A stretch of DNA of 64,000 bases from Alphaproteobacteria bacterium (GTDB lineage: Bacteria; Pseudomonadota; Alphaproteobacteria; RF32; CAG-239), in NCBI GenBank assembly GCA_048463395.1, contig DBFWPL010000025.1, positions 9,545 to 73,544 of the forward strand, written 5' to 3'. This document shows, piece after piece, positions 3,240-54,281 of this stretch. Both the position numbers and the translations under genes were made by a program. How positions within the stretch are numbered: position 1 is the stretch's first letter; each line of letters opens with the position of its first letter. A model generated the notes under the pieces. That model searched no databases and was not told the DNA's origin. It was given only the letters and a program-made list of their open reading frames with translations.

Positions 3240-3258
3240 AACCCTGACAGGATGGTCA

Positions 3259-3579: not shown

Positions 3580-3606
3580 GAGATAATCTTGCTTGTTTTT
3601 TTATAG

Positions 3607-3647: not shown

Positions 3648-3653
3648 ATACAT

Positions 3654-31167: not shown

Positions 31168-31243
31168 GCGAACGTAGCTCAGTTGGTAGAGCCCCGGTTT
31201 GTGGTACCGGTTGTCGTGGGTTCGAGCCCCATCGTTCGCCCCA
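31168..31243 (+). tRNA. tRNA-His (anticodon GTG)
   Basis: A cloverleaf can be drawn with an extra 5' G at -1, the acceptor stem GCGAACG/CGTTCGC, a D arm GCTC-AGTTGGTA-GAGC, an anticodon stem CCGGT/ACCGG with loop TTGTGGT, and a T arm GTGGG-TTCGAGC-CCCAT. A 3' CCA is encoded. It is followed by a hairpin terminator. Confidence 0.9.
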
Positions 31244-31513
31244 GTTTGAGAAAAAGCATCGTTTAATACGGTGCTTTTTTGTTTATGGTTATCAGGGGCT
31301 CGAACCAAGGTTCGTCTGGCTCATAAGCTCACTTTCAGTTCGCTAACTCGCTGCGGTCACTCCATTTGTAACATTTGTTTCGCAGCACTGTCGTTTGCTC
31401 ACAAACTAACAAATTGTCGTCTGTCGTCAAAAAACAATCCGCCGGATTGTTTTTTATTCTCCAGCCCCATCGTTCGCCCCAGTTTGAGAAAAAGCACCGT
31501 TTAATACGGTGCT
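31225..31513 (+). repeat. 61-bp direct repeat of the tRNA-His 3' end plus its downstream terminator (copies at 31225-31285 and 31453-31513), likely an att-like integration scar
   Basis: Both copies read AGCCCCATCGTTCGCCCCAGTTTGAGAAAAAGCA[T/C]CGTTTAATACGGTGCTTTTTTGTTT, with one mismatch. The intervening 167 bp contains an inverted copy of the tRNA T-arm (GGGGCTCGAACC) and a hairpin plus T6 terminator (CAATCCGCCGGATTGTTTTTT). Confidence 0.7.
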
Positions 31514-31524
31514 TTTTTGTTTTT

Positions 31525-31986
31525 TTAAGTAATGTCATCTTTTTCCATGTATATTTTCATAATATCGGAGAATGTCGGATATTCGGCTCGGGAAAGAAGA
31601 TTTATTCTATCCGCAACGGCATAAGAATCTGTCTGTTTGTCATAGAAAATAATACTTTCGGAGATTCTACCTAAGACGGTTTTATTCCTGAAAAAGTCAT
31701 AATCGGCATAAGTTTTGGCGATGCTTGCCAGGTCAGGAAAAACATATTCTTTTTCTTTCCGGTTGTGAGAAACGGTTCCATAAAGTTCGAGCCCGTTATA
31801 GATAAAACCGTCGGAGAGTTTTAGAAAGACTTTGTATTCGTCCGGAAGTTCCGAGAAGCCGTTATCGGTAAGGACGGTATTAATCATGTTAATCTTTTTA
31901 TCATCGGCCGGAGAAAATGTTACGCAGCCGTTTTTTTGTTTAAAAACGTTTAAGCAGCGGCTAATCATTGTATATTTTCCCTTCAA
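31525..31986 (-). CDS. SUKH-family (SMI1/KNR4-like) immunity protein
   Basis: The SUKH signature LPDEYKVFLKLSDGFIYNGLELYG is present, followed by IIFYDKQTDSYAVAD (the G/D-rich second motif). Confidence 0.65.
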   Translation of the reverse strand: MKGKYTMISRCLNVFKQKNGCVTFSPADDKKINMINTVLTDNGFSELPDEYKVFLKLSDGFIYNGLELYGTVSHNRKEKEYVFPDLASIAKTYADYDFFRNKTVLGRISESIIFYDKQTDSYAVADRINLLSRAEYPTFSDIMKIYMEKDDIT

Positions 31987-32566
31987 AATAAGGTATAAAT
32001 ATTTTTTTGTGCAATCGCAGGAAGTTGTTGGTTATCTGCATATCAAAAATCTGGTGCAAATTATTGTGGGTCGGATGCGTTTTTATGAGCATAAGATTGT
32101 TAAAGCCGGTGTTGCCGTCGAAGTCAAGCGGAATCTTGAGATGGGTGTTTAAATTCTCTGGGGCAATGCCTTGTTTTAAGAAATTTATATCTTCCTCAGA
32201 AAGTCCGGCCTCCCGACATTCAGAAGTACAGGAGTAGGCGAGAAGTTTAAAAAACATGATTCTGGAACGTTGATATTCTCCCAAGATTTTTTGCATATCC
32301 TGCCAAGACTGCGGATGATAACTTTTTTCAATCAATTCAAACTTAGAGAGTTTTAACTCATTGATTTTCTTCTCAACCAGAGTTTTCATCTCTTGTTCGG
32401 AAATGGTTGAGATTTGTTTGGGAGATTGGGGTTCGTTTATTTCTTTATGAGGAGGAATGTAGATTTCCAGTGTTTCTCCAACCAAATCCCCGTAAGCCGC
32501 AACCAAAGATGTTTTGGGTTTCTCTTCGGTTTTTGGCTGGTTGATTTGGTTGGACCATTCCCACAT
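31961..32566 (-). CDS. Hypothetical protein with a C-terminal HNH-like nuclease motif, candidate toxin
   Basis: The C-terminal region NTHLKIPLDFDGNTGFNNLMLIKTHPTHNNLH fits the HNH pattern His-(Gly-rich)-Asn-Leu-...-His-x3-His. The gene overlaps the downstream SUKH gene by 26 nt. Confidence 0.45.
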   Translation of the reverse strand: MWEWSNQINQPKTEEKPKTSLVAAYGDLVGETLEIYIPPHKEINEPQSPKQISTISEQEMKTLVEKKINELKLSKFELIEKSYHPQSWQDMQKILGEYQRSRIMFFKLLAYSCTSECREAGLSEEDINFLKQGIAPENLNTHLKIPLDFDGNTGFNNLMLIKTHPTHNNLHQIFDMQITNNFLRLHKKIFIPYFEGKIYND

Positions 32567-32588
32567 TATAAAATCCCGTGATTATTTG

Positions 32589-34811
32589 TTATTCCTGATT
32601 GTCATCGTCGAATTCGTCATCTTCAAATTCATCGTCTAAATCTTCGTCCGGATTATAATCGAGGCCAAGTTTGGAGAGCATGTCTTCGTTAATATCCTCG
32701 CGTTGAGCGACAATCCAATCCGGAACCCATGGAGCCGGAGGAAGTTTGGATAAGGCCAGCATTTGTTTATCCAGATAAAAACGCGGTGCATCGGCGATGA
32801 TCGGGCGGTCGATGGAGCCTTGCATCAGGACAACTTGTTTTAACATCGGCAAGCTCAGCAATTGCGTGGTGCTGATAACCGAAGTTCCCTGTAATTGATA
32901 ACTGACGTTTTTGGCAAACGGATTGGAGCCTTTGCCCAGACCGCCTTCGTTTTTGGAGAAAGACGTGGTTTGAACGGTTTTGTTACCAATCATTTTAGAG
33001 AAACGTTGGGCTGTCTGTTCGTTGTTCTGAGACAAGATGACTTTGCATGCGGTGGTGGAAATCACGGTTTCCAAATCGTCTTTTCCGTATTTACCGGAGA
33101 TTTGTCCCAGGTCTTGTCCGATAAGCAGATATGACACTTTCTGTCCACGACCGACCGCCGGTCCGTCGATAATGGCTTTTAATTTAGGCATTTGCGGAAA
33201 CTCGTCGAGTACGAACAGGCAAGGGTAAGGCCCCATTTTGCCTTCGGTTTTGTTGACGAAGTTAGGCGGATTTGCAATCAGATATGAAGACATAAGCTCA
33301 ATAAACGTACCGCTGATGATGTTCAAGGCTCGTGCGTCAACCTGGTTAACGGAAAGATAAACGGAGATAGGTTTCCATTCTCCCGTAATCGGGTCTTTCA
33401 TACCGCGGAGGTCTCTAAATTGCAAATCAGAGAAACTGGTGCGGGATACCACGGCCGAGTTTTTAAAGATGCCGATGCCCGAGAAACCGGTAGAAAGCAC
33501 GGAACCTCTTTCTTTATCCGGCATGGAGCTTAATTGGCTCAATTCAACGATACAGCGTTGAGAGTAACCGAATTTGCGGGCTTCGGCAATGGCTTCTTCA
33601 AGCAAATCTCTCATCGGGTCAGCCATGGCGGCCATTTGGTCGCCTTCTTCCAGACGGCGTTTGATTTCCTGAGACTGCTTAATCTGGGCTTCGGTAATCC
33701 ATTCCAAAATCATGGCCAGGCAAGATTCATGCCCGATCCATTTTTCCGGCAGCAAAGCCCAAGTTCCGATAGGCAGGTAATTGTCTATGGTAATATTGTT
33801 GTTTTTGAGGTTTTGGATAGCCTGAGCCGACATCGGGTCGTGCATTTCCATATAATAACCTTCAAGTACGCGTTTGTCTTCTTCATCCAGTTTGCCTTCA
33901 TAGACACGGCCGATGAAGTAGTCGTTAGCCCGGGCCCTTTCGCATTTTGAGGCAATGAAGTGAATGAAACCGGTCAGGGCTGAACGTCCGGTCTTGGACC
34001 AGTGTGGGTCGGCACCGCCTTTAGGGTCTTCAACCAAAATGTTACACATGGAGTCAACATACATATCGCGGTCAGGTCCCGGCATTGGCAATGCTTGCGG
34101 GGAAAGCGGATTCCAGCTTGGATAATAAACACCTTCTGCCGGATTATCTTCGGCACCCCAGTTAATTACGAAAACAGGTCCGTCTTTGGCTCGGGCTCCG
34201 GTTGTGCTGTAACACAGTTCCGGTTTAGGGTCGTTTACGATAATGCTCATGCCGTGAGAGTTGAAAATGGTCGGAATAACCACTCCGGCTGTTTTACCGG
34301 TACCCGGAGGAGCACAACACAGGGTGGCCAGTGTTTCTTTGAGCATAAGCATTTTGCCGTTGAATTTTCCGACAACCTGACAAAAACCGTCAAAGCCGAG
34401 CAACGGCATTTTTTTGATGTCTTTTTCCGTGGCAATGCGGGCAGAACCGTGGATGTTTGATTGGAAACGGTATGGGTTGGTTATCACGCCGATAATAATT
34501 CCGGTCGGTAGGGACAGAATCGGAAGAATCGGAAGCCAGAGACTTACCGAGAACGGGCCGTGATATCCGGATAATTGTTTGAACCAGTTCCAATATCTTG
34601 AGAATAGGAAGTTTGGATTGTTGATAATGGCACTGATAAATTTACCGACATCGTTCAGCGTGTCTTTGGAAATACCGCTGCCGATAAGGTACCCTAAAGG
34701 CATGGATATGATTGCGAGAACAATTGTAACGGCCAATGAAATGACGATGGTTAAAACCATCCATTTCACCGCGTTATCATACTCTTCCCATTCTTCTCCT
34801 CTTTTTTGCAT
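32589..34811 (-). CDS. Type IV secretion/conjugation coupling protein (VirD4/TraG/DotL superfamily ATPase)
   Basis: Two N-terminal TM helices are followed by a Walker A motif (APPGTGKTAGVVIP) and a Walker B motif (LFVLDEFPQ). Length is 740 aa, with an acidic C-terminal tail. Confidence 0.85.
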   Translation of the reverse strand: MQKRGEEWEEYDNAVKWMVLTIVISLAVTIVLAIISMPLGYLIGSGISKDTLNDVGKFISAIINNPNFLFSRYWNWFKQLSGYHGPFSVSLWLPILPILSLPTGIIIGVITNPYRFQSNIHGSARIATEKDIKKMPLLGFDGFCQVVGKFNGKMLMLKETLATLCCAPPGTGKTAGVVIPTIFNSHGMSIIVNDPKPELCYSTTGARAKDGPVFVINWGAEDNPAEGVYYPSWNPLSPQALPMPGPDRDMYVDSMCNILVEDPKGGADPHWSKTGRSALTGFIHFIASKCERARANDYFIGRVYEGKLDEEDKRVLEGYYMEMHDPMSAQAIQNLKNNNITIDNYLPIGTWALLPEKWIGHESCLAMILEWITEAQIKQSQEIKRRLEEGDQMAAMADPMRDLLEEAIAEARKFGYSQRCIVELSQLSSMPDKERGSVLSTGFSGIGIFKNSAVVSRTSFSDLQFRDLRGMKDPITGEWKPISVYLSVNQVDARALNIISGTFIELMSSYLIANPPNFVNKTEGKMGPYPCLFVLDEFPQMPKLKAIIDGPAVGRGQKVSYLLIGQDLGQISGKYGKDDLETVISTTACKVILSQNNEQTAQRFSKMIGNKTVQTTSFSKNEGGLGKGSNPFAKNVSYQLQGTSVISTTQLLSLPMLKQVVLMQGSIDRPIIADAPRFYLDKQMLALSKLPPAPWVPDWIVAQREDINEDMLSKLGLDYNPDEDLDDEFEDDEFDDDNQE

Positions 34812-34825
34812 TTTTACTCTACACC

Positions 34826-36106
34826 TTACGCAATGTTTCTAATTAGTTTTTTTACTTTTTCAAATTTGTCTTTATCGATTTTATCGTTTGCTTCTTCCAA
34901 TGTTTTGGAGAACAGTTTCAGTTCTTTCGGGGTTCCCCGGTCAATGCGGGTAACGTTGATGTCCATGTCGTCCCAGACTTCAAACATATCTTCAGCATTG
35001 ATGATATTGCCGATTTGTTCCACAACATAAGCCTTAATTTCAAATTTCAAATCCTGTTCTTCTAATTTGTCGGCTAAAATCCGGCGGGACAAATCAACCT
35101 TGCGTACAGGGGAAATCCGGTGGGAACTCTCAGAAAACCACAGCGGTTCTTCGTCATTGAAACGTTCTTCATCAGCGAGCCAGTCGCCCGGTTCTTTATC
35201 CAATAAACAAAGACAGATTTGTTTGTCGGCAACGCCGATAAAGTCTATCAGGTTATTTTTGATGGTTGTTCCGGAAATGACCTCATATCCCTTTTGTTTG
35301 ATGACTTCCAGACTGGAGTTGCCGCTTCCCCGAGAGGAAGGTTGTTTGGCGGCAGGAGTTGTTGTCGCAGGGGCTTTTTTCTCTTTAGGGGTTTTGGTGT
35401 TTTTGTTTTTTGTTGTTTTATCTTCTTGTCGCAGAGAAGGAGTTTCATTTACAGGTTCTTCTTTTCTGTCATTATCCTGTTTATCAAAAGCGTCAAAATT
35501 AAAGTCAAAATCGTCTTCTTCACTATCGTCAAATCGGAAAAGGGAGTGGTCGAATACTTTTTCCGGTGTAGGAGCCGGTTTGACTTCCGGAGCGGGAGCT
35601 TTTGGTTTGATGCGGTTCGGAGCGGAACGAGAGGTTGCCGGCCGAGGTGATAAATCAAATTTCTCGTCAATCGGGTTGCGAATACTGCGAGGACGGACTT
35701 CTTTGTAGGATTTTTTCTTTTTAACAGCTCGGGTGCTGGCTGCCGTATTGGCAATCATTTTAACCGGTTTGAAGAAAATGCTGTTGAAGAGTTTTAATGG
35801 AGACAAGGCAATTTTTAAAAAGATTTTTTCCCAGGCAATCATGCTTAAAGCCGCCCAGCCGGTCAGCCAGAGCGGAATAAACGTCAGGATGATTAACACA
35901 AAAGCCCATTCTTTGGGATCATCAATGACCCAGCCGGACATCCACAAATCCCATGCGTGTTGCCAGTGGCCGGTGCGGAAGATGTCAAAACGCCAGTTTC
36001 GGAGCATAATAACCCTAATGCCTTCAATGAAGAACACGCTCCAAAAAAGGCCGACACATATGATTCTTATTAATATCAATAAGGGTTTCAAGCTTCTCTC
36101 CAACAA
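34826..36106 (-). CDS. Hypothetical membrane protein upstream of the T4CP (DotM/IcmP-TrbA-like position; function unknown)
   Basis: N-terminal TM helices are followed by a Lys/Pro-rich linker, an acidic DDSEEDDFDFNFD patch and a C-terminal globular region. The DotM-like assignment is inferred only from position and architecture. Confidence 0.5.
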   Translation of the reverse strand: MLERSLKPLLILIRIICVGLFWSVFFIEGIRVIMLRNWRFDIFRTGHWQHAWDLWMSGWVIDDPKEWAFVLIILTFIPLWLTGWAALSMIAWEKIFLKIALSPLKLFNSIFFKPVKMIANTAASTRAVKKKKSYKEVRPRSIRNPIDEKFDLSPRPATSRSAPNRIKPKAPAPEVKPAPTPEKVFDHSLFRFDDSEEDDFDFNFDAFDKQDNDRKEEPVNETPSLRQEDKTTKNKNTKTPKEKKAPATTTPAAKQPSSRGSGNSSLEVIKQKGYEVISGTTIKNNLIDFIGVADKQICLCLLDKEPGDWLADEERFNDEEPLWFSESSHRISPVRKVDLSRRILADKLEEQDLKFEIKAYVVEQIGNIINAEDMFEVWDDMDINVTRIDRGTPKELKLFSKTLEEANDKIDKDKFEKVKKLIRNIA

Positions 36107-36147
36107 TTATGCCATAGTATAACAGCATTAGAATTGTTAACAACTGT

Positions 36148-36642
36148 TTATTTTTCGCTGTTCATTTTTTCCTGAATGCTTTCTCTTATTTGAGAAGAGG
36201 TGTTTTCCGGAGATCTGTTTTTGTCAAAGAGTTTCATTCTGTCTTCAATCAGCTCATCCAGTTTCTGAGATTTTTTGCTGCCGCCCATGTTTTTTAAGAC
36301 AATACGGGAAGAAGCTTCGCCATATTTTTTGATTTTACGTTTGTTATACCAGATAATCGGTGTCAATAACAATTGCACGAAGTCTTTTCGGTAAAAATAT
36401 CTCCAGCCGAGTATCCAGACTGGTATAATCAGCAGCAGACAAGTAACAAAAAGATAGTCTTTTCCGCTTTTGATGCGGCCGCCGTTTTCCCAAAAGGTAT
36501 TGATTGTCTGCCAGTCTCCGGCGGAAAGGTAGTTAAAATTCCAAATAAGATAAATAAGAAGGCCGGTGCAATAGACATAGGCATAGGTCCAAATTGTTCC
36601 GACCAAACAAAATTTGATGAATTTGGCTAGTTTTTTAAGCAT
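36148..36642 (-). CDS. Hypothetical membrane protein
   Basis: A 164-aa protein with 3-4 TM helices and a charged C-terminus. Confidence 0.5.
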   Translation of the reverse strand: MLKKLAKFIKFCLVGTIWTYAYVYCTGLLIYLIWNFNYLSAGDWQTINTFWENGGRIKSGKDYLFVTCLLLIIPVWILGWRYFYRKDFVQLLLTPIIWYNKRKIKKYGEASSRIVLKNMGGSKKSQKLDELIEDRMKLFDKNRSPENTSSQIRESIQEKMNSEK

Positions 36643-36664
36643 TTTTCTTGATTTCCTTATTTCT

Positions 36665-38341
36665 TTATCTACCGCCTATGCCACCAAGCATTTGAGCCAT
36701 TTGACGGTCTTTTAAGGCTTGTTGTTGTTTTTGTTGATTATTTTTGTTGATGGTTTGCTGAGCTTTTTTGTCGGCTTCAACGGTTCCTGATACAGGTCCT
36801 GTCGCATTGTAATATTCTAATTTACTTTGCCATTTAATATATTCTTGTTGTTCTTTTTCGCTTAGATTTCCTTTGTGATCAAGGGTTTCCAGTTTCTTTT
36901 GGCAAATATCAACCAGTTTTTGTCTCCGGTCAATGTTATTGACTCGTCTTTGGGTTGCTTGCACCAATTCCTGATCTTTCTCGGCCATTTTCCCCATCAT
37001 CATCTGTTCAATATTTTTTCCTTCAACGGCTTCCTGATAAAGGCCTTTAGGTTGATTATCCCGCTGATTGTCATTGGCGGGAGCGTTATCCCAGCCTAAA
37101 GATTCTTTTATTTTATCAAGTGCCGGATTTTCTTTCGGCTCTTTGCCTTTTTCAACATAATGCCCTTTTTTATGGTTTTTGTCAGCTTTTTCTCTGGCTT
37201 TTACGGCCGTTTTTAAGGTTTCATTCAAAAATGCGGTCGGATCTCGGCCCTCTTTTCTCTCCTGATCACATTTCTTGGCAATTAACAGTTTGGCTTTCTT
37301 TTGATAAGCATCAAACAGTTTTTCGGGATTCGCATTTTTGAAGGCATTAGGGTCGGCATGCAATTCCGCGGTCATTTGAGCCTGGGCGATTAATGCGGAA
37401 CTTTGTTCTACGTTTATTAAGTTGTCACGCAGATCTTTCATATTTTTCCCCAGGTCTTTGAGGAAATCTTTTTTTGTTCTTTTAGGATTATTCTTATCTG
37501 GATGCTCAGGCATATTTTGCAGAAAACGTTTTGTCTCCGGACTGAAAGATGTTTCATCGTAGTTTCCTGCCATGGCGGCTTTGATGTCTTTTTGGAATGA
37601 TTTGTCTTGTTCTTCCAACTCTTCCGTTTTCTTTAAACTTTTTTTGTCGGCATAATTATCTACTTTGTTTTTTTGTGTAGAGGTTTTATCCGGCGTGTTG
37701 CCTGATATTATTTTGTCTTTTTGTCGACCTTGCCGTGCTCTGAAATAAGCTCCGCTAAGTTTTTCACTTCCTTTTTTCCATAACCAGTTCGCTCCGCCGA
37801 TAAGCCAGTCAGTATACATATATTGGATAATATCACCTTCTTTGAACGGACCGTCTTCTTCTTTTCCTTTAGGTTGTTCACCGTCTTTGTTTTCAATTTC
37901 CGGAGCATCTTGTTCTTCCAGATTCTTTTTTTGTTCTTCAAGGGCGGCTCTTTCCGGTGCATCCAGACCCTCGACAAGAAGTTTATGATTGATTTCGTCA
38001 ATTGTCAGGCCTTTGGCACTTTCTGCCGTGATTCTTTCTTTCGGTTGAGACTGTTCCGGTGCAGTACCTTCCACGGTTAAGTTCTTATTTTCTTCGGAGA
38101 CGCCCAAGGTTTCCGGTTGTTTTGTTTCTGAATTGGTTGTTGCAGGAGTTTCTCTTGAGACTTCCTCAGAAATTCCCATCGTCGTTCTTTTCGGCTCCTG
38201 TTGCTGTGTTGCTGCCGGAGAAGCCTGAGACGGTTGCTGAGAAGCTGCAGTGTTTGTGGCGGTCGGCTTTGTTTGCGGCGTTTGGGTATTTGTTGCAGCC
38301 GGTTTAGGAGAAGTTGGGTTTGTCTGTTTTGTATCAGCCAT
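36665..38341 (-). CDS. Hypothetical low-complexity charged protein (Gln/Lys/Glu/Thr-rich)
   Basis: A 558-aa protein with a disordered N-terminus (TNTQTPQTKPTATNT...) and no recognisable catalytic motif. Confidence 0.5.
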   Translation of the reverse strand: MADTKQTNPTSPKPAATNTQTPQTKPTATNTAASQQPSQASPAATQQQEPKRTTMGISEEVSRETPATTNSETKQPETLGVSEENKNLTVEGTAPEQSQPKERITAESAKGLTIDEINHKLLVEGLDAPERAALEEQKKNLEEQDAPEIENKDGEQPKGKEEDGPFKEGDIIQYMYTDWLIGGANWLWKKGSEKLSGAYFRARQGRQKDKIISGNTPDKTSTQKNKVDNYADKKSLKKTEELEEQDKSFQKDIKAAMAGNYDETSFSPETKRFLQNMPEHPDKNNPKRTKKDFLKDLGKNMKDLRDNLINVEQSSALIAQAQMTAELHADPNAFKNANPEKLFDAYQKKAKLLIAKKCDQERKEGRDPTAFLNETLKTAVKAREKADKNHKKGHYVEKGKEPKENPALDKIKESLGWDNAPANDNQRDNQPKGLYQEAVEGKNIEQMMMGKMAEKDQELVQATQRRVNNIDRRQKLVDICQKKLETLDHKGNLSEKEQQEYIKWQSKLEYYNATGPVSGTVEADKKAQQTINKNNQQKQQQALKDRQMAQMLGGIGGR

Positions 38342-38422
38342 GGTTTTTATCCTGCTTAAATTTGATTTTATTTAATTTTATCACACTAAAATGTTTTTGT
38401 CCATATTTTTGCCAATTTTATT

Positions 38423-39451
38423 TTAAATCTTGAGTTTTCGGATAAATTCACCGATTTCGATGTTAACCCTTATGCCGTCTTGAGGGGTTGGTTTTATCAT
38501 TCCGAAGAAACGAGGACGGATTTTACTGACGTCGATCGGAGCGAATACGGCCGGATTTTTTGTCAAAACCTGATAAGCTCCGTCAGGATCTTTTTGTGCT
38601 GTTTTGAAGTAATTGTTTATTAAACGTTCGGCGTTAATCGGAAATTTCTTTTCTTCAATAGCTTTGATGTATTTGTTTATCCGATTAATGCGTTCCTGAT
38701 GTTCCTGATAAATTTCCCGTTCGATTTTTTTTCGCTGAGCTTTTAGACGTCTTTCATCATAAGAAATTTCACAGCCTTCCATTTCAATCAAAATCTCAAC
38801 ATAGGAAATGATTGCCAGCTGCAAAGTATCATCGGTTGTTTTTTCGGCAAAATCCAGTAAATCTTCGTCGCTTGCGTTAGGGTTGATACCTAATGTGTGT
38901 AACGGATGGACTTTTAGAATTATGTCCCAACCGGTTAAGGTATCTTCGGCTATTTTTTTGCCGATAGACGGGCGATAACGGGGAGCCAACATAGAGGTTG
39001 TTACTTTGAAATCCGGTATGTCCAAGTTATTTTCTTCAGCAATTAAAGCAATGGCATCGGCGAAATTGGTGTAAGCCTGATAAAGAGCATTTTCTTCTTC
39101 TTCCAGATTTTCAGCAGATATGGAAGGGAGTTGGACAGTGGGTTTTTCTTCTTCTTCGGAAGGTGTTTTTCCTGATTTGAGCTGTTCGATTTCATCGTCA
39201 ACGGTTTCAAGCTCTGAACTGATGAAATCATTCAATAAGCGTTCAAACTCGTCATCATCGTTGCTTTCTCTGATTGTGAGAGTAGGGGTTTCTTCCGTAT
39301 CTGTTGATGTTTCAGGCAAATCAAAGTTGTCTTCAATCAAATTTGAGATTTCTTCATGAATTGGAATGTCCGGTGCCGGAGAGGCCGGTTGCTGCACGGC
39401 TTTTTTTACTTTTATTTTTTTGAAAACCTTAACGTTTTGTTGTTCGCTCAT
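38423..39451 (-). CDS. Hypothetical acidic protein
   Basis: A 342-aa protein with Glu/Asp-rich N-terminal and middle regions and no recognisable motif. Confidence 0.5.
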   Translation of the reverse strand: MSEQQNVKVFKKIKVKKAVQQPASPAPDIPIHEEISNLIEDNFDLPETSTDTEETPTLTIRESNDDDEFERLLNDFISSELETVDDEIEQLKSGKTPSEEEEKPTVQLPSISAENLEEEENALYQAYTNFADAIALIAEENNLDIPDFKVTTSMLAPRYRPSIGKKIAEDTLTGWDIILKVHPLHTLGINPNASDEDLLDFAEKTTDDTLQLAIISYVEILIEMEGCEISYDERRLKAQRKKIEREIYQEHQERINRINKYIKAIEEKKFPINAERLINNYFKTAQKDPDGAYQVLTKNPAVFAPIDVSKIRPRFFGMIKPTPQDGIRVNIEIGEFIRKLKI

Positions 39452-39461
39452 CTTACTTTTC

Positions 39462-39752
39462 CTAATTGATTTTTAATGTAGAGAGTTTTTGTCCGGATAT
39501 GGTGTCAAAAATTATGATACGGTCGGATTCTCCGCCGCCTTCTATATGAATATATAAATGTCCGTTTTGTTCAACCATATTTTTAACGAAACTGCCTTGA
39601 GGTTCCTGCAGGTTGATTTGCCGGGGGAGAGGTTCCGTTTTCTTTTGATTTTTCCGGTACAGAGAACCTAAAAGCATAAGACTTCCGAAAATCAGTGCAA
39701 AAGTCAAAACAAAAACGGTTGTTTTCACTAATCTCAGTTTGTCCATCATCAA
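39462..39752 (-). CDS. Small membrane-anchored protein
   Basis: A 96-aa protein with an N-terminal signal-anchor. Confidence 0.4.
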   Translation of the reverse strand: MMMDKLRLVKTTVFVLTFALIFGSLMLLGSLYRKNQKKTEPLPRQINLQEPQGSFVKNMVEQNGHLYIHIEGGGESDRIIIFDTISGQKLSTLKIN

Positions 39753-39833
39753 TTCCTTGCAAATTATGTGATTATCTGTATTTTAATATTGATTTGGTAA
39801 CTATATGGTAAATTTTTTGATTTTAAATTAAAG

Positions 39834-40811
39834 ATGGAAGAAACGGAACAGAACATATTTTTTACAGAACCGGTATCTGCGGAAGAAAAAGGGAGCCGTT
39901 TGGATAAATATCTGGCTTCGGTTGTTCCGGGAATGTCTCGTTCCCGGATTCAAAATTTGATAGAAAACGGTTATGTTTCCCGTGATGATGACATTATCTC
40001 CGATAATTCCTTTAAGGTAAAACTTGAAGATGTTTACCAAATTTTTATTCCGGCGGCTGAGGAAGCAGAGCCTGAGCCTGAAGACATTCCGTTAGATGTC
40101 GTTTATGAAGACAATGACTTGATTGTTGTAAACAAGCCTGCCGGTATGACGGTTCATCCGGCACCGGGAGCTTACCACGGGACATTGGTAAACGCATTGT
40201 TGTATCATTGCCGGGACAATTTGTCTGGAATCGGCGGGGTAAAACGTCCGGGGATTGTTCATCGTATTGATAAAGATACCAGCGGTTTGTTGGTTGTGGC
40301 TAAAAATGACGCGGCACATCATGGTTTAAGCGAGCAATTTTTTGAGCATTCTATCGAAAGAACCTATTTTGCCGTTGTTTACGGTGTTCCGAATCCGATG
40401 TCCGGACGGATAGAGGCCAATATCGGTCGAAGTCTGTATGACCGCAAAAAAATGGCTGTTCTTCAGGGAAAAGGAAAGCCCGCAGTTACGCATTACAAGA
40501 CTATAAAGAGTTTTGGAGGAGCGGCTTCTTTAATCCAATGTAATCTGGAAACCGGCCGGACTCATCAGATTCGCGTCCATATGTCCAGTATTGGGTGTAA
40601 TTTGATTGGAGATCAGGTGTATTCCAAGGCTAAAAAGTCATCTTTGAAGTTTGGCAATGATGATGTGAAAAACTATGTTAACAATTTTCCCCGTCAGGCT
40701 CTTCATGCTGCGTCTTTAGGGTTTGTTCATCCCGTAACCGCTGAAAAACTTCAGTTTTCATCTGATTTTCCTGCGGATATTCAAGAACTTTTAGATAAGC
40801 TGGTGTTCTAA
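39834..40811 (+). CDS. rluD: 23S rRNA pseudouridine synthase, RluA/RluD family
   Basis: An S4-like N-terminal domain is followed by the catalytic motif (HRIDKDTSGLLVVAK) and a C-terminal HQIRVH motif. Confidence 0.85.
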   Translation: MEETEQNIFFTEPVSAEEKGSRLDKYLASVVPGMSRSRIQNLIENGYVSRDDDIISDNSFKVKLEDVYQIFIPAAEEAEPEPEDIPLDVVYEDNDLIVVNKPAGMTVHPAPGAYHGTLVNALLYHCRDNLSGIGGVKRPGIVHRIDKDTSGLLVVAKNDAAHHGLSEQFFEHSIERTYFAVVYGVPNPMSGRIEANIGRSLYDRKKMAVLQGKGKPAVTHYKTIKSFGGAASLIQCNLETGRTHQIRVHMSSIGCNLIGDQVYSKAKKSSLKFGNDDVKNYVNNFPRQALHAASLGFVHPVTAEKLQFSSDFPADIQELLDKLVF

Positions 40812-48116: not shown

Positions 48117-48947
48117 TTATTGGTATGTACCGTCTTGGTTACTAAATGAGGAACCTACGGGGGCCTGACTACAGTCAATGGTGGTAACTGACTTAAGTTT
48201 TCCGCTGTCTAACACCAACATAATACCGGCATTGTATCCTAAACTTTTGCTGTCTGCATGTGCGACGTTATCAGCGGAACCTTGTAAGTTTATTCCCATA
48301 AAAGTGTCTTTGAAGGTGGTATTTGATGTCGGGCAGTCAGTGCTATCCGGACTAATGACAACAACAGCATATCCCACATTCAGCATAGCGGTATAAAAAT
48401 CAACGGCGGAGTTGGGATCGGATGGTTTTAAATTTTGTTGACAATATTTACCGCCAATAATAAGAACGCTCTTGTTCTCGTTTAAATTCCAAGTTCCGGA
48501 GCCAAGGAGACCTTGGTCTCGGGCGGCATAGCTGAAGATGTCCTGAAGGCCAAAACCGTTGTCTTTCTTTTCACATTTGTTTTGGGCTTCAAGAAAAGCG
48601 GTTGGAATCATTCCGCTGTTGGCACATTTTCTACACCAGGTAGGAGACATGGCGGCACAAGCCTCAAGAGTTACGGACCAAGGGATTTTGTCTGGACGAA
48701 GAGTTCCTGTCGGGCAGGTTTCCGGTTGTGGGTCAATAGGATCAGGACACCAATAAGCACCGGAGTCAAACGGACAAATCAAACTTTTTCCAGGAGTGGT
48801 TGGGCATAGTTTGGCGTTATAAATAAAACCAAGACTTTCACAAGTCGGTTGAGAACCGCAAGTTTGAGCTGATGCGGTTGAGTTTGGCAAGGAGAAAACA
48901 AGTGCTAAAAGGCCCAGCTTTGCATATTTTTTAAAGTTCTCATTCAT
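48117..48947 (-). CDS. Secreted cysteine-rich protein, function unknown
   Basis: A signal peptide is followed by many Cys residues arranged as C..C/CP motifs. The gene is adjacent to, and co-oriented with, two other Cys-rich secreted proteins. Confidence 0.55.
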   Translation of the reverse strand: MNENFKKYAKLGLLALVFSLPNSTASAQTCGSQPTCESLGFIYNAKLCPTTPGKSLICPFDSGAYWCPDPIDPQPETCPTGTLRPDKIPWSVTLEACAAMSPTWCRKCANSGMIPTAFLEAQNKCEKKDNGFGLQDIFSYAARDQGLLGSGTWNLNENKSVLIIGGKYCQQNLKPSDPNSAVDFYTAMLNVGYAVVVISPDSTDCPTSNTTFKDTFMGINLQGSADNVAHADSKSLGYNAGIMLVLDSGKLKSVTTIDCSQAPVGSSFSNQDGTYQ

Positions 48948-48966
48948 TGTTTTTTCTCCTTAAAAG

Positions 48967-49767
48967 TTATTTAGGCATAATTGGGATAAGTTTACATTTC
49001 CAAGAACAATTATCCAGATTAACATATCCGGAGGCACATCCGGTGATGTAATATTTGGCAGAACAGTTCTCGAAAGAACAGGTATATCCGTTCGGACAAA
49101 TTGAGTAAATTCCGCGGTTTGGGCAGGATTTGCATTTGTTGTATTTTGTAACCCCGTTTTCAGTGCAGCTTTCGGCACCGGCTTCGTGTCCCAAGTCGCA
49201 AACGATGAATTCCGACGCACAAGAGCATCCGCTTTGGGCGGCATTTATGGTATACGGCGAGGAGCAAGTTTGGCAAATTGATTTAGGGTAATAGTAAGTT
49301 TCTAAGTTTCGGTTGTCTCTGCAAAAATTATTAGAGGCTCGGTTTTCAGGCGTGATGTATTCGTCGTTTCCGGAACATTCGGTTAATGTGTTTGTGGCAT
49401 CGGAACAACGGCAAGAATAGTGGGTGCCGTTTTTGTCGGAACAGCTTTCCGTTGTGGCTAATTTGCCGCAAACGGAAAGTTGGTTTCCTTCTTCAACGCT
49501 GTAATAGTCGGAGTTGCACTTGCAGGATTTAAAATATCCGGTGTCATAAGGACAAATTTCATCCGGAAGCATATTTGCTTCACAAGTGGTTAAGGTATAT
49601 CCTGCGTCAGTACATAGAGCTTTATTGTTTAGTTTGAATGAAACGTCTGAATCTCCCACACTAAAGTAACCAAATGAATTGACATCGGTAATACAGCGGA
49701 CTGCCGCATTGCTTGAGGAGAAACCAAGCAGGATAGCGAAACTAAAAAAGAATAAAAATTTAGTCAT
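48967..49767 (-). CDS. Secreted cysteine-rich protein, function unknown
   Basis: A signal peptide begins at the internal Met (MTKFLFFFSFAILLGFSSSNA). The tool ORF extends to 49833. The sequence carries more than 30 Cys residues with CxC, CxxC and GY motifs. Confidence 0.55.
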   Translation of the reverse strand: MTKFLFFFSFAILLGFSSSNAAVRCITDVNSFGYFSVGDSDVSFKLNNKALCTDAGYTLTTCEANMLPDEICPYDTGYFKSCKCNSDYYSVEEGNQLSVCGKLATTESCSDKNGTHYSCRCSDATNTLTECSGNDEYITPENRASNNFCRDNRNLETYYYPKSICQTCSSPYTINAAQSGCSCASEFIVCDLGHEAGAESCTENGVTKYNKCKSCPNRGIYSICPNGYTCSFENCSAKYYITGCASGYVNLDNCSWKCKLIPIMPK

Positions 49768-49802
49768 GTTTCTTCTCCTTATGTTTTCCCGTGTACAAAA
49801 TC

Positions 49803-52924: not shown

Positions 52925-53872
52925 TTATTTATAAGAGGCTCGTTTGATACGGTCGTTGATGGCTAGTCCCAAGCCGTGTTCCGGAATAGGGGATATGGCA
53001 ATGCTTTGGCAGTTTTCTTGTTTGTCAGCCAAACGCAGAAAAGCAAAGAGGTTTCCGGCAGCTTCGCAAAGGTCTCCTTTGGGACTAAGGTTTAAGTCAG
53101 CATCCTTTACATTACCGAATCCGATAAAAAACTCACCCGGTTGGCGGGTTACGGCATTTATTCGCAGCGGTCGTCCCGGAGCATAGTGTTTGAGAAGCTG
53201 CCCGGGGGCACTTGGTTTGTCCGGTGTACCGTCGGAAAGTAAAACTTCTTCATTGAGAAAACGGCTTAAATCTTCTTTGGAAGTTCCTCCGGCTCGCAAA
53301 ATGATCACCTGTTTTCCGGTAACGTCGATAATTGTTGATTCGACACCGACTTTACAAGCTCCGCCGTCTAAAATCATGTTTACTTTTTCGCCGAGGCTCT
53401 CAAATACGTGTTCAGCCGTGGTCGGGCTGATGGATTTGAACTTGTTGGCTGATGGGGCGACGATCGGAACACCGCTTTGGCGAATGAGTTCCAAAGCAAC
53501 CGGATGTGCCGGCATTCGGACGGCAATGTTCGGTAAGCCGGAACAGGCCAAATCAATAGCGGCATTGTTGTCTTTACGTTTGAGAATCATTGTGAGAGGT
53601 CCCGGCCAGAATTTTTTTGCCAAAGCCATGACCCTTTCATCCGTTTGGGCATAAGTTGCTAAAAAGTCCGTTTCGGCAATGTGGGAAATCAGCGGGTCAA
53701 AAAAAGGGCGTTGTTTAGCCTCAAAAATTGAGGCAACCGCCTGTGCGTCATAAACATTGGCTCCGAGGCCGTAAACCGTTTCCGTCGGCATGGCGACAAG
53801 GCCGCCGTTTTTTATCGTTTCAGCCGCTTTGTTCAGATTTTCGGGGGTCGGTTGGTAAATGTTACTCATCAA
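52925..53872 (-). CDS. tsaC: L-threonylcarbamoyladenylate synthase (Sua5/TsaC family, long form)
   Basis: A YrdC-like N-terminal domain (GGLVAMPTETVYGLG) is followed by a Sua5 C-terminal domain. Length is 315 aa. Confidence 0.85.
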   Translation of the reverse strand: MMSNIYQPTPENLNKAAETIKNGGLVAMPTETVYGLGANVYDAQAVASIFEAKQRPFFDPLISHIAETDFLATYAQTDERVMALAKKFWPGPLTMILKRKDNNAAIDLACSGLPNIAVRMPAHPVALELIRQSGVPIVAPSANKFKSISPTTAEHVFESLGEKVNMILDGGACKVGVESTIIDVTGKQVIILRAGGTSKEDLSRFLNEEVLLSDGTPDKPSAPGQLLKHYAPGRPLRINAVTRQPGEFFIGFGNVKDADLNLSPKGDLCEAAGNLFAFLRLADKQENCQSIAISPIPEHGLGLAINDRIKRASYK

Positions 53873-54281
53873 TTATCTTCAAAATGTAAGTCAATGCCAA
53901 ATTTAGTTCTCTTTCCTGATATTCTTCTAGCACTTCGGCATCTTCTTTGTCAATAATTTGATAAGATTTTGAAAGTTGGTTATAGCCAAGGTAGTCAAAT
54001 TCATCACAGCCTAAAAGCAAGATGTTCGGGTTGCAGTTATGCGACATGTTTTCTCGGAAAATGTCGGAAAGGTATTGATTTTGAGGAGAAATTCCGTAAA
54101 TGTGAGAGCCATTGCAGGAGGCGGCGTTAAAAGTATGAAGAATTTCCAAAAAGCTGTCCGGAATGGTCGGAAAACGATTGGAAAGCAGCTGTTTTTGACA
54201 AAGGATGATGTCTTTGGGTTTAACCGGAGAACCGAGTTCTATGAGTTGTTGTTTGGTCATTATATCAAGTAAGTTGTTCAT
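53862..54281 (-). CDS. SUKH-family (SMI1/KNR4-like) protein, candidate immunity protein
   Basis: The stretches IPDSFLEILHTFNAASCNGSHIYGI and LLLGCDEFDYLGYN match the two SUKH signature regions. Confidence 0.5.
   Translation of the reverse strand: MNNLLDIMTKQQLIELGSPVKPKDIILCQKQLLSNRFPTIPDSFLEILHTFNAASCNGSHIYGISPQNQYLSDIFRENMSHNCNPNILLLGCDEFDYLGYNQLSKSYQIIDKEDAEVLEEYQERELNLALTYILKIIDE

What the first reader, a model, noticed from the sequence alone, without database searches (positions are those of the whole stretch)
32589..39752. Orphan type IV coupling protein with a cluster of membrane and low-complexity charged proteins
A VirD4/TraG/DotL-family ATPase with Walker A and B motifs, an N-terminal TM pair and an acidic C-terminal tail is present, but no other T4SS structural genes (VirB4, VirB11, VirB6-10 or Dot/Icm equivalents) appear anywhere in the window. 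Immediately upstream and co-transcribed is a 426-aa membrane protein with a Lys/Pro linker and acidic patch, in the position DotM/IcmP (TrbA in IncI systems) occupies beside DotL. Further upstream are a 4-TM protein, a 558-aa Gln/Lys/Glu-rich disordered protein, a 342-aa acidic protein and a small anchored protein. None shows recognisable motifs. This could be the coupling module of a T4B-like system whose core is elsewhere, or a decayed conjugative element. In either case the disordered and acidic proteins are candidate T4SS substrates or adaptors.
Basis: partly seen in the sequence, partly recalled or inferred. Interest (0 to 1): 0.6.

Follow-up and report, generated by a model that had tools for sequence, protein, structure and literature searches.

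The report
Stand-alone coupling module of dispersed T4SS
This is the substrate-recruiting ATPase of a type IV secretion machine, kept at its own chromosomal site in a common group of gut bacteria with a previously undescribed membrane partner and a toxin/antidote-like gene pair, while the rest of the machine lies elsewhere in the genome.

Summary
Eight tightly packed minus-strand genes (31525-39752) include a 740-aa VirD4/TraG-type coupling protein (T4CP) with two TM helices, Walker A/B motifs and an acidic tail. No other T4SS gene lies in the window or about 9 kb beyond either end.

The block is not a decayed mobile element. It is syntenic in at least 80 species of gut and rumen Alphaproteobacteria. 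The T4CP (74-89% identity) is better conserved than the neighbouring housekeeping genes.

The T4SS core is elsewhere. In MAG MGYG-HGUT-00610, which carries the same block, a VirB2x3-B3-B4-...-B8x2-B9 cluster sits on another contig. In a sister lineage VirB3/VirB4 lie 6.6 kb from the T4CP, among housekeeping genes. The system is VirB/D4-like, not Dot/Icm-like.

The 421/426-aa neighbour is not DotM-like. It has a 2-TM domain (paralogous to the 164-aa protein), charged disordered linkers and a tentatively restriction-endonuclease-like C-terminal domain. It accompanies the T4CP across clades that share only about 55% T4CP identity, so it is probably a new coupling-complex subunit.

These are a candidate effector/immunity pair.

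Verdict: a new variant of a known kind, of moderate interest.

The parts
32589..34811 (-). VirD4/TraG-type type IV coupling protein (740 aa) with two N-terminal TM helices, Walker A/B motifs and an acidic C-terminal tail
   Evidence: Pfam T4SS-DNA_transf 5.5e-56, TraG-D_C and TrwB_AAD_bind. Weak sub-threshold matches to VirD4/TraG NCBIfam models. A family profile hits H. pylori Cag5/Cag-beta at 3e-13, TrwB at 0.095 and no DotL. Identity is 74-89% across 80 species. K173 (Walker A) and D536 (Walker B) are invariant even in relatives at 35% identity.
34826..36091 (-). Conserved T4CP partner (421 aa; 426 aa if the TTG at 36106 is used). It has a W-rich 2-TM N-terminal domain, a KKKKSYKEVRP motif, a Pro-rich linker, an acidic-aromatic DDFDFNFDAFD motif, a basic disordered linker and a C-terminal domain of about 160 aa. 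That domain holds the invariant loop DKEPGDWLADEERFNDEEPLWFSESSHRISPVRK.
   Evidence: Its stop codon lies 14 nt before the T4CP start. It is present in every locus that reaches that far, 79 loci in the ORF extraction. Homologues (28-30% identity, same GDWLA.EE..FN.E.PLWFSE motif) directly precede the T4CP in the sister clades L085 and L087. The AF2 model has pLDDT 85-93 in both folded domains. Foldseek PDB top hits are Nt.BspD6I, R2 RLE, BstEII, Cdn1, Card1 and AF1548, with best E 5e-3 and probability 0.96. No Pfam, NCBIfam, PDB or PADLOC sequence match.
36148..36642 (-). 164-aa membrane protein, a stand-alone paralogue of the partner's N-terminal membrane domain
   Evidence: hhalign of the two family alignments gives probability 99% and E 4.9e-18 over 103 columns. 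Present in nearly all gut-clade loci at 21-53% identity. No counterpart next to the T4CP in L085 or L087.
36665..38341 (-). 558-aa K/E/A/Q-rich protein, poorly conserved, likely disordered, role unknown
   Evidence: Composition. Only 23-36% identity over partial lengths, and undetectable in many species. No family match.
38423..39451 (-). 342-aa acidic protein (disordered acidic N-terminal half, conserved helical C-terminal half), gut-clade-specific, role unknown
   Evidence: 37-60% identity in 69 loci. No significant Pfam or PDB-profile match. No homologue detected in L085-L087.
39462..39752 (-). Small N-terminally anchored DUF6476 protein, first gene of the putative operon and divergent from rluD. 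Probably a neighbour rather than part of the secretion module.
   Evidence: Pfam DUF6476 4.5e-8. One TM at residues 6-33. No homologue detected in L085-L087; none is called in the T4CP loci of L085 and L087.
31961..32566 (-). 201-aa protein with an HNH/beta-beta-alpha-metal-like motif (PENxNxHLKIPxDFGG..N..L..THPxHxxIH), a candidate effector/toxin
   Evidence: It starts 22 nt after the T4CP stop. The family alignment has invariant H142, H167 and H171, with N157 nearly invariant. The profile aligns to the HNH motif of the pyocin AP41 DNase (4uhp, E 0.55, not significant). It aligns to the ColE7 DNase at hhalign E 0.007 with low probability. The position of the colicin general-base His is Leu. 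Homologues follow the T4CP in L085 and L087. It was detected in only 19 of the 80 genome-collection loci, several of which end just after the T4CP.
31525..31986 (-). 153-aa SUKH/YrhA-family protein that overlaps the preceding gene, a candidate immunity protein
   Evidence: NCBIfam YrhA family 8.8e-18, 64.6 bits against a cut-off of 55. Pfam SUKH_5 at 1.9e-4, sub-threshold. It co-occurs with the 201-aa gene in nearly every locus and in L085 and L087. It is homologous to the window's 139-aa protein at 53862-54281 (E 4e-6).
31488..31518 (.). 13-bp-stem palindromic hairpin flanked by A and T runs, immediately after the last gene. Likely a bidirectional terminator that closes the operon.
   Evidence: Terminator scan. 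It is part of a 63-nt duplication of the tRNA-His 3' end plus hairpin (31222-31284 and 31460-31522, 97%).
39753..39833 (.). Divergent intergenic region between the block and rluD, the probable promoter region of the eight-gene operon
   Evidence: Two sigma-70-like matches on the minus strand at 39827-39800 and 39800-39771 (9 of 12, weak). No strong minus-strand terminator lies inside the block. Intergenic gaps run from an overlap to 81 nt.

Best explanation
The block encodes the substrate-receptor ('coupling') module of a chromosomal, vertically inherited VirB/D4-type (type IVA) secretion system. The genes of that system are dispersed over several loci, much as in the Rickettsiales rvh system.

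The 740-aa T4CP is an inner-membrane ATPase that recruits substrates and hands them to a VirB2/B3/B4/B8/B9... channel encoded elsewhere in the genome.

The 421-aa protein upstream appears translationally coupled to the T4CP and is its dedicated membrane partner. It has a 2-TM anchor that is duplicated as the 164-aa protein. It also has long charged linkers (poly-Lys, acidic-aromatic FDFDFD) and a restriction-endonuclease-like C-terminal domain with an invariant acidic loop. It most likely builds a recruitment platform on the T4CP. In that sense it would work like DotM beside DotL, but it is not related to DotM.

The HNH-like 201-aa protein and its SUKH partner just downstream are most likely a cargo/immunity pair. 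This suggests the machine delivers toxins to neighbouring cells in the gut.

Shown: the T4CP family assignment and its intact motifs; deep synteny and strong conservation; a VirB core at another locus in a congeneric MAG and in a sister lineage; co-inheritance of partner, T4CP, HNH-like and SUKH genes across clades.

Inferred: a physical T4CP-partner complex; secretion of the 201-aa protein; the toxin/immunity function; a VirB core in this very genome.
For: - T4CP identity and intact ATPase motifs.
- Chromosomal and vertical inheritance. The same block, with rluD as its upstream neighbour, occurs in 80 species representatives, and 288 relatives were detected. T4CP identity is 74-89%, against 58-73% for rluD and 69-83% for mipZ. 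Downstream neighbours in other species are housekeeping genes.
- The core is elsewhere. VirB4 P0618 lies on contig CABQIK010000005.1 of GCA_902464275.1, in a cluster with TrbC x3, a VirB3-like gene, VirB4, VirB8 x2 and VirB9. The same assembly's contig CABQIK010000015.1 carries the syntenic T4CP block (locus L059; T4CP 77% identical to the window's). The tetranucleotide correlation of the two loci is 0.967, against 0.05-0.80 for other loci.
- In sister lineage L087 (T4CP 57% identical to the window's), VirB3/VirB4 lie 6.6 kb from the T4CP on the same 486-kb contig, between dxs and a PAS-domain gene.
- Rumen relatives carry the same VirB cluster. The six VirB4 proteins of that group read in full are all 809-810 aa and align closely by eye.
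- The closest plasmid T4CPs (33-35% identity) close complete VirB2-B11/D4 operons.
- The order partner, T4CP, HNH-like, SUKH is kept in L085 and L087 but is absent from plasmid operons and from L086.
- Tight gene spacing and a terminal hairpin.
- The SUKH/YrhA assignment is above the curated cut-off. The HNH-like motif has invariant His, Asn, His and His. SUKH proteins are known immunity partners of nuclease toxins (Zhang et al. 2011/2012; PMC3482391 listed).
- Bacteria-killing T4SSs and a proposed killing role for the ancestral rvh system are precedents (PMC9352585; PMC11077975).
Against: - No VirB gene has been seen in the window's own genome. Only about 77 kb of its 145-kb scaffold was inspected.
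- The MAG-level link rests on binning plus compositional similarity.
- No interaction between the T4CP and its partner was tested.
- The REase-like fold assignment is weak (best E 5e-3, low TM-scores) and the canonical (D/E)xK motif is not evident.
- The 201-aa protein's similarity to HNH DNases is statistically insignificant. The colicin general-base His is replaced by Leu. Its single-sequence AF2 model failed.
- The HNH-like/SUKH pair was detected in only 19 of the 80 genome-collection loci (some are cut short after the T4CP). It is conserved rather than polymorphic where present, which is atypical for toxin cassettes.
- No recognised T4SS secretion signal was identified.
Confidence: 0.7

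Rival explanations
1. DNA-handling module. The T4CP, the membrane protein with a nuclease-like domain and the HNH-like protein process and export (or import) DNA through the T4SS. This would be a non-canonical conjugation or DNA-release system with no HUH relaxase. The SUKH protein would restrain the nuclease.
For: Both accessory proteins carry nucleic-acid-enzyme-like folds or motifs. In L085 and L087 a ribbon-helix-helix protein (RHH_4) precedes the module, and RHH proteins often serve as relaxosome accessory factors. T4CPs are ancestrally DNA translocases. The nearest plasmid relatives sit beside Rad52, TopB, SSB and primase genes.
Against: No relaxase, oriT or integrase is present. The catalytic motifs of both nuclease-like domains are incomplete or uncertain. 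The HNH-like/SUKH pair is dispensable in most species. The block is a core chromosomal trait, not a mobile one.
Confidence: 0.15
2. T4SS-independent machine. The T4CP-like ATPase, with its two membrane partners, forms an autonomous inner-membrane translocase or remodelling motor (FtsK-like). Its function is unrelated to any VirB channel.
For: No VirB gene lies within 10 kb of the T4CP in any of 80 species. The T4CP is unusually well conserved, like a housekeeping gene. It has unique partners found with no other T4CP.
Against: A VirB cluster is present in a genome with the same block and close to the T4CP in the sister lineage. The VirB4 proteins of the gut/rumen group read in full are nearly the same length and closely alike by eye, which would fit co-inheritance of one system. 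The T4CP retains all domains of T4SS-coupled relatives.
Confidence: 0.08
3. Remnant of an integrated conjugative element. The T4CP would be a leftover, decaying or domesticated piece next to tRNA-His.
For: tRNA-His lies 280 bp beyond the last gene. Its 3' end plus the following hairpin is duplicated 238 bp downstream, an att-like scar. The region downstream of the T4CP varies between species.
Against: The duplication encloses only about 175 bp and does not bracket the block, and there is no third copy. There are no mobility genes. GC content is unremarkable. The ORFs are intact and the T4CP is 74-89% identical across at least 80 species in the same chromosomal context.
Confidence: 0.03
4. Anti-phage or anti-plasmid defence system built from an ATPase and nuclease-like proteins.
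For: The gene content (P-loop ATPase, REase-like domain, HNH-like protein) superficially resembles defence islands. A CRISPR-Cas9 locus lies 27 kb away.
Against: No PADLOC model matches any of the ten proteins at a meaningful level. Core, syntenic conservation is the opposite of what defence islands show. The ATPase is a bona fide T4CP with a cognate VirB system.
Confidence: 0.03

Closest known systems
VirD4/TraG coupling proteins of alphaproteobacterial VirB/D4 (P-type, MPF_T) systems. The closest solved structure is H. pylori Cag-beta (8dol).
   Same: The same Pfam families, N-terminal TM pair, Walker A/B motifs and TraG-D_C region. The closest annotated relatives (33-35% identity) are the last gene of VirB2-B11/D4 operons on Microvirga, Erythrobacter and Thalassospira plasmids.
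   Different: Here the gene is separated from the VirB genes and sits among housekeeping genes. It is inherited vertically, is 74-89% conserved across a whole family-level clade, and has its own partner genes. All NCBIfam equivalog scores are far below their cut-offs.
Rickettsiales vir homologue (rvh) T4SS
   Same: It is a chromosomal, vertically inherited P-type T4SS. Its genes are split over several loci among housekeeping genes, and some components are duplicated (here VirB2 x3 and VirB8 x2, with a small gene between the VirB8 copies followed by VirB9). rvh features as described in PMC9352585. A bacteria-killing role has been proposed for the ancestral rvh system.
   Different: To my recollection, not checked here, rvhD4 sits with rvhB8-B11, whereas here the T4CP is alone with a new partner. 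The five genes after VirB4 are secreted coiled-coil proteins, not polytopic VirB6 paralogues. The phylogenetic relationship to rvh was not tested.
Legionella Dot/Icm type IV coupling complex (DotL-DotM/IcmP)
   Same: The T4CP gene is immediately preceded by a gene for an inner-membrane protein with N-terminal TM helices and a cytoplasmic domain. The T4CP has an acidic C-terminal tail. The module lies apart from other secretion genes.
   Different: The T4CP is not DotL-type. The partner shows no sequence or fold similarity to DotM. No IcmS/IcmW/DotN-like genes were found. The associated core is VirB-type.
Bacteria-killing T4SS of Xanthomonadales (X-T4SS) with effector/immunity pairs
   Same: It is a chromosomal VirB/D4-type system with a putative nuclease-type toxin and cognate immunity gene next to secretion genes. 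An antibacterial nuclease effector is a known precedent (PMC11253643, listed).
   Different: No XVIPCD-type signal was recognised. The candidate toxin is small, conserved and lacks the canonical general base. The partner protein has no counterpart among the plasmid VirB/D4 operons examined here.
Polymorphic-toxin HNH nuclease plus SUKH (SMI1/KNR4, YrhA) immunity pairs
   Same: The gene order is toxin then overlapping immunity gene. The SUKH/YrhA membership is above the curated cut-off. An HNH-like H..N..H..H motif is present. A second such pair lies in the window at 53862-55873.
   Different: There is no recognisable trafficking domain and no polymorphism. The pair is inherited together with a T4CP across deep clades. 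The similarity to HNH DNases is not statistically significant.

Membership tests
VirD4/TraG type IV coupling protein (Pfam PF02534 family) | Sequence match to the family model above the curated threshold | tested here: met
   T4SS-DNA_transf 190.8 bits (cut-off 20.1). TraG-D_C 83.3 bits. TrwB_AAD_bind 61.5 bits.
VirD4/TraG type IV coupling protein (Pfam PF02534 family) | N-terminal transmembrane anchor and intact Walker A/B NTPase motifs | tested here: met
   Hydrophobic segments at 13-48 and 88-113. GTGKT and LFVLDEF motifs. K173 and D536 are invariant in the family alignment.
VirD4/TraG type IV coupling protein (Pfam PF02534 family) | A cognate T4SS channel (VirB4, B8, B9...) in the same genome | tested here: inconclusive
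   Not seen in the roughly 77 kb inspected of this genome. Present on another contig of MAG MGYG-HGUT-00610, which carries the same block. Present 6.6 kb away in sister lineage L087.
DotL/IcmO (type IVB coupling protein) | Closer similarity to DotL than to VirD4/TraG/TrwB | tested here: not met
   The profile search of the PDB returns Cag-beta at 3e-13 and TrwB at 0.095, with no DotL chain up to E = 1. All NCBIfam matches are VirD4/TraG/TraD models.
DotM/IcmP (TrbA) for the 421-aa neighbour | Sequence or fold similarity to the DotM cytoplasmic domain | tested here: not met
DotM/IcmP (TrbA) for the 421-aa neighbour | Inner-membrane protein encoded directly upstream of, and co-inherited with, the coupling protein | tested here: met
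   14-nt gap to the T4CP. Present in every gut-clade locus that reaches that far and in L085 and L087. This shows positional and functional analogy only.
PD-(D/E)xK restriction-endonuclease-like superfamily (C-terminal domain of the 421-aa protein) | alpha-beta-beta-beta-alpha-beta core fold | tested here: inconclusive
   The AF2 secondary-structure order is H-E-E-E-(loop)-H-E-H-E with pLDDT 85-93. Best Foldseek hits are Nt.BspD6I, R2 RLE, BstEII, Cdn1, Card1 and AF1548, at E 5e-3 to 0.6 with probability up to 0.96. Viral library hits are weak and endonuclease-like.
PD-(D/E)xK restriction-endonuclease-like superfamily (C-terminal domain of the 421-aa protein) | Catalytic D ... (D/E)xK signature on strands 2 and 3 | tested here: inconclusive
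   D288 on strand 2 is invariant. Strand 3 is followed by an invariant D303 and then K304-E305 (90% or more), not a canonical (D/E)xK.
HNH / beta-beta-alpha-metal nuclease (201-aa protein) | His ... Asn ... His ... His motif alignable to colicin-type DNases | tested here: inconclusive
   H142, H167 and H171 are invariant and N157 is nearly invariant. The motif aligns to pyocin AP41 (E 0.55) and ColE7 (hhalign E 0.007, probability 5%). No Pfam hit.
HNH / beta-beta-alpha-metal nuclease (201-aa protein) | General-base histidine (second His of the colicin 'HH') | tested here: not met
   The aligned position is Leu, Ile or Met in all members (HLK, HIK, HMK).
SUKH / YrhA (SMI1-KNR4) immunity-type proteins (153-aa protein) | Match to the family model above the curated cut-off | tested here: met
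   NCBIfam NF038335 YrhA family, 64.6 bits against a cut-off of 55, E 8.8e-18. Pfam SUKH_5 is sub-threshold.
Integrative conjugative / mobilisable element | Integrase, relaxase, bounding att repeats, patchy distribution | tested here: not met
   None of these genes is in the block. The only repeat pair encloses about 175 bp outside the block. The block is syntenic in 80 species.
rvh-like dispersed T4SS | T4SS genes split over several chromosomal loci, with duplicated components | tested here: met
   The T4CP is alone. A VirB3/B4 pair lies alone between housekeeping genes in L087 and L105. TrbC x3 and VirB8 x2 occur in L155.
rvh-like dispersed T4SS | Phylogenetic affiliation of VirB4/VirD4 with Rickettsiales rvh genes; VirB6 expansion | not tested
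   No rvh sequences were available to the tools. No TrbL/VirB6 domain was detected after VirB4.

The most novel reading that the evidence does not exclude
The partner, T4CP, HNH-like and SUKH genes form a new kind of type IV coupling complex. It would belong to a dispersed, vertically inherited VirB-type secretion system that is a core trait of a very prevalent lineage of human and animal gut Alphaproteobacteria. The 421-aa protein would be a new substrate-recruiting subunit. The system would be used for contact-dependent delivery of nuclease-type toxins. It could also be the nearest free-living counterpart, or a relative of the donor, of the Rickettsiales rvh system.
Probability: 0.25. Interest if true: 0.7.

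Novelty: new variant of a known kind. Interest (0 to 1): 0.5.

Why it matters
These uncultured gut Alphaproteobacteria are very prevalent. One T4CP variant is listed in 7,040 blocks of the assembly index. Almost nothing is known about how they interact with neighbours or host.

A T4SS conserved more strongly than nearby housekeeping genes implies that secretion is central to their lifestyle. The module offers three testable things:
- a new protein family that always accompanies a T4CP, and so may be a new coupling-complex subunit;
- a concrete candidate effector/immunity pair for a possible bacteria-killing T4SS in the mammalian gut;
- a second example, outside Rickettsiales, of a dispersed and duplicated chromosomal T4SS, which bears on how the rvh system arose.

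No paper in the searchable library describes it.

Tried and rejected
I rebuilt the alignment from database hits instead.
- A single-sequence AF2 model of the 201-aa protein was unusable, with pLDDT 36.
- Linking VirB genes to T4CP genomes through NCBI accession or locus-tag proximity failed; all came from different MAGs.
- I looked for sequence overlap between the flanks of VirB4 loci and T4CP loci. Only distant housekeeping homologues turned up, such as DnaE at 49%.
- Genes downstream of the T4CP in other species were checked for hidden VirB genes. All were housekeeping.
- Defence-system reading: no PADLOC match.
- Island reading: the tRNA-His repeat does not bracket the block.
- The 342-aa family has no Pfam or PDB match.
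- Literature searches on RF32, CAG-239 or 'Azospirillum sp. CAG' combined with secretion systems found nothing relevant.

Full report
**What is there.**
Between rluD (39834-40811, plus strand) and tRNA-His (31168-31243) lie eight minus-strand genes. Their spacing runs from an overlap to 81 nt:
- a 96-aa DUF6476 protein;
- a 342-aa acidic protein;
- a 558-aa K/E/A/Q-rich protein;
- a 164-aa membrane protein;
- a 426-aa protein, more likely 421 aa from 36091;
- the 740-aa ATPase;
- a 201-aa protein;
- an overlapping 153-aa protein.

A 13-bp-stem hairpin at 31488-31518 follows the last gene, and no strong minus-strand terminator lies inside the block.

**The ATPase.**
It is a bona fide VirD4/TraG-type coupling protein, with Pfam T4SS-DNA_transf at 5.5e-56, TraG-D_C and TrwB_AAD_bind. 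It has two N-terminal TM segments, GTGKT and LFVLDEF motifs, and an acidic tail. All NCBIfam matches are VirD4/TraG/TraD models, and all fall far below their equivalog cut-offs. A 19-sequence family profile hits H. pylori Cag-beta (3e-13) and weakly TrwB, but no DotL. The closest plasmid-borne relatives (33-35% identity) are the last gene of complete VirB2-B11/D4 operons on alphaproteobacterial plasmids. The protein is therefore type IVA-like, not Dot/Icm-like.

**Host organism and inheritance.**
Identical and near-identical proteins come from human-gut Alphaproteobacteria MAGs, named 'Azospirillum sp. CAG:260', '47_25' and '51_20', and Candidatus Scatocola. From memory, GTDB places these in order RF32; no tool result here shows that.

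A scan of species-representative genomes found 288 relatives. The best 80 are 74-89% identical and come from human, chicken, rabbit, deer, reindeer and rumen samples. In these loci the order rluD | DUF6476 - 342 - (558, variable) - 164 - 426 - T4CP is kept. The T4CP is more conserved than rluD (58-73%), mipZ (69-83%) or the DacC-SPOR gene (61-70%). Downstream of the T4CP synteny breaks, and the neighbours there are housekeeping genes.

There is no integrase, relaxase or compositional anomaly. A 63-nt duplication of the tRNA-His 3' end plus hairpin (31222-31284 and 31460-31522) encloses only about 175 bp and does not bracket the block. This is not a decayed mobile element.

**Where the T4SS core is.**
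No T4SS gene is found in the window, in the contig stretches beyond either end of the window, or within 10 kb of the T4CP in any of the 80 species.

A search of 50%-identity cluster representatives revealed more distant members of the same T4CP subfamily at 35-54% identity. In one of these, L087 (T4CP 57% identical to the window's), a VirB3-like gene and VirB4 lie 6.6 kb upstream on the same 486-kb contig, between dxs and a PAS-domain gene.

I then used three VirB4 sequences to scan metagenomes. This recovered a VirB4 group 54-57% identical to L087's, with GC 0.40-0.45. The six of these VirB4 proteins that I read in full are all 809-810 aa and closely alike by eye; no pairwise identities were computed.

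One of them, P0618, lies on contig CABQIK010000005.1 of assembly GCA_902464275.1. The T4CP locus L059 is contig CABQIK010000015.1 of the same MAG, MGYG-HGUT-00610. Its T4CP is 77% identical to the window's and it has the full block synteny. The tetranucleotide profiles of the two loci correlate at 0.967, against 0.05-0.80 for unrelated loci.

That VirB locus holds, in order:
- three TrbC/VirB2 genes;
- a 413-aa gene;
- a VirB3-like gene;
- VirB4;
- four large genes with no Pfam hit (the counterparts after VirB4 in the rumen relative are predicted secreted proteins, two of them with coiled-coil-type matches);
- two VirB8 genes;
- VirB9, continuing off the fetched stretch.

A rumen relative has the same layout, with a 59-aa gene between the VirB8 copies and a 1453-aa gene after VirB9.

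So in this clade the T4SS is chromosomal, dispersed and partly duplicated. This recalls the Rickettsiales rvh system as described in PMC9352585. For the window's own genome the presence of the core is inferred, not shown.

**The neighbour that looked like DotM.**
The family alignment shows five parts:
- a W-rich N-terminal membrane domain;
- KKKKSYKE(I/V)RP;
- a Pro-rich linker;
- an acidic-aromatic HSLFxFDDxxDDFDFDFDxFD motif;
- a basic disordered linker, followed by a C-terminal domain of about 160 aa whose 30-residue loop (DKEPGDWLADEERFNDEEPLWFSESSHRISPVRK) is almost invariant.

The AF2 model built on 53 sequences is confident in both folded parts. The membrane domain is paralogous to the whole 164-aa protein (hhalign 99%, E 4.9e-18). 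The C-terminal domain has an alpha-beta-beta-beta-alpha-beta order. Its only fold matches are restriction-endonuclease-like proteins: Nt.BspD6I, the R2 RLE, BstEII, Cdn1, Card1 and AF1548. The best E is 5e-3, so this is tentative. A canonical (D/E)xK is not evident.

No DotM similarity appears by sequence, profile or fold. Even so, the protein is tied to the T4CP:
- the gap between the two genes is 14 nt;
- it is present in every locus that reaches that far;
- homologues at 28-30% identity, with the same signature loop, directly precede the T4CP in L085 and L087;
- it is absent from plasmid VirB/D4 operons.

Distant T4CPs of about 1000 aa carry aromatic-acidic repeats in their own C-terminal tails (EWQDFDNEWQDF...). 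These resemble the partner's FDFDFD motif, which hints at a shared docking function. I read this protein as a new, dedicated T4CP partner. It is analogous in position to DotM but not homologous to it.

**The downstream pair.**
The 153-aa protein belongs to the YrhA/SUKH family, above the curated cut-off.

The 201-aa family has invariant H142, H167 and H171 and a nearly invariant N157, in the motif PENxNxHLKIPxDFGG...N..L..THPxHxxIH. This motif aligns residue for residue with the HNH motif of the pyocin AP41 and colicin E7 DNases. The scores are not significant, and the colicin general-base His is replaced by Leu.

The pair follows the T4CP in L085 and L087 as well, but it was detected in only 19 of the 80 genome-collection loci, several of which end just after the T4CP. 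That pattern fits dispensable cargo better than core machinery. SUKH proteins are established immunity partners of nuclease toxins (PMC3482391, listed). Bacteria-killing T4SSs with nuclease effectors are also known (PMC11253643, listed). I therefore favour an effector/immunity pair, with modest confidence.

A second pair of this kind lies in the window: a 531-aa protein with VHHK...N...H...H at 54278-55873 and a SUKH-like 139-aa protein at 53862-54281.

**The other upstream genes.**
The 342-aa and 558-aa proteins are restricted to the gut clade and have no detectable relatives or folds. Whether they are adaptors, substrates or merely operon neighbours cannot be decided. DUF6476 is probably just a neighbour.

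**Rivals.**
- A DNA-handling role is the most serious rival (0.15). It draws on the nuclease-like folds and the RHH gene in the sister clades.
- A T4SS-independent motor is made unlikely by the VirB cluster in the same MAG (0.08).
- A decayed element (0.03) and a defence system (0.03) are contradicted by the deep synteny and by the absence of mobility genes and PADLOC matches.

**Verdict.**
The T4B and DotM framing and the decay alternative are not. The finding is a new variant of a known kind: a dispersed, vertically inherited VirB/D4-type system in abundant gut Alphaproteobacteria. Its T4CP travels with a previously undescribed partner family and a candidate toxin/immunity pair.

Noticed in passing
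window 3-5463 (continues off-window to the left): A type II CRISPR-Cas locus: Cas9 (cut by the window start; 1141 aa on the contig), Cas2 and Cas1. On the contig side of Cas9 lie a GIY-YIG protein and a phage-type integrase. No repeat array was looked for.
   Followed up: partly
window 53862-55873: A second toxin/immunity-like pair. The 531-aa protein carries a VHHKIAV...NL...H...H (HNH-like) motif. It is followed by a 139-aa protein homologous to the SUKH/YrhA protein of the T4CP operon (E 4e-6). Neither has a Pfam hit.
   Followed up: partly
window 48117-52754: Three consecutive Cys-rich proteins with N-terminal signal-like segments (276, 288 and 983 aa). They carry repeated C..C..GY-type modules and match no family.
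   Followed up: no
window 31222-31284 and 31460-31522: A 63-nt direct repeat (97% identical) made of the last 22 nt of tRNA-His plus the terminator-like hairpin. The copies start 238 bp apart and enclose about 175 bp. It looks like an att-type scar of a lost insertion at tRNA-His and abuts the end of the T4CP operon.
   Followed up: partly
L155 1-6720 (GCA_902464275.1, CABQIK010000005.1): Directly beside the VirB cluster of the related MAG lies a type IVb-pilus-like cluster (T2SSE ATPase, PilO, secretin, TcpQ). A T4SS next to a type IV pilus locus recalls the thin-pilus arrangement of IncI plasmids.
   Followed up: no
L161 6635-15452 and L155 12514-20100: VirB4 is followed by four or five large genes with no family match, up to 1387 aa. 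In L161 they are predicted secreted proteins and two give coiled-coil-type matches. They stand where VirB5/VirB6 would be expected. A 1453-aa gene follows VirB9.
   Followed up: partly
proteins P0243, P0248, P0255 (T4CP relatives of about 1000 aa): These T4CPs have long acidic C-terminal extensions with aromatic-acidic repeats (EWQDFDNEWQDFEEEWSDF...). The repeats resemble the FDFDFD motif of the 421-aa partner.
   Followed up: no
protein P0249 (1169 aa): A T4CP relative with a Hint/intein-type domain (Pfam Hom_end_hint, 31.4 bits against a cut-off of 32.1, so just sub-threshold) N-terminal to the ATPase region.
   Followed up: no
L086 7485-12259: A distant member of the T4CP subfamily (37% identity, GC 56%) is also alone among housekeeping genes (mutL, pgi, pepN). 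It is preceded by a pentapeptide-repeat protein with an Arg-rich C-terminus (...RVKRQRQRQRS), a typical look for a T4SS substrate.
   Followed up: no
L085 8486-8764 and L087 8483-8764: In the sister clades a ribbon-helix-helix protein (RHH_4) sits directly upstream of the partner-T4CP pair. It occupies the place of the 164/558/342-aa genes of the gut clade.
   Followed up: no
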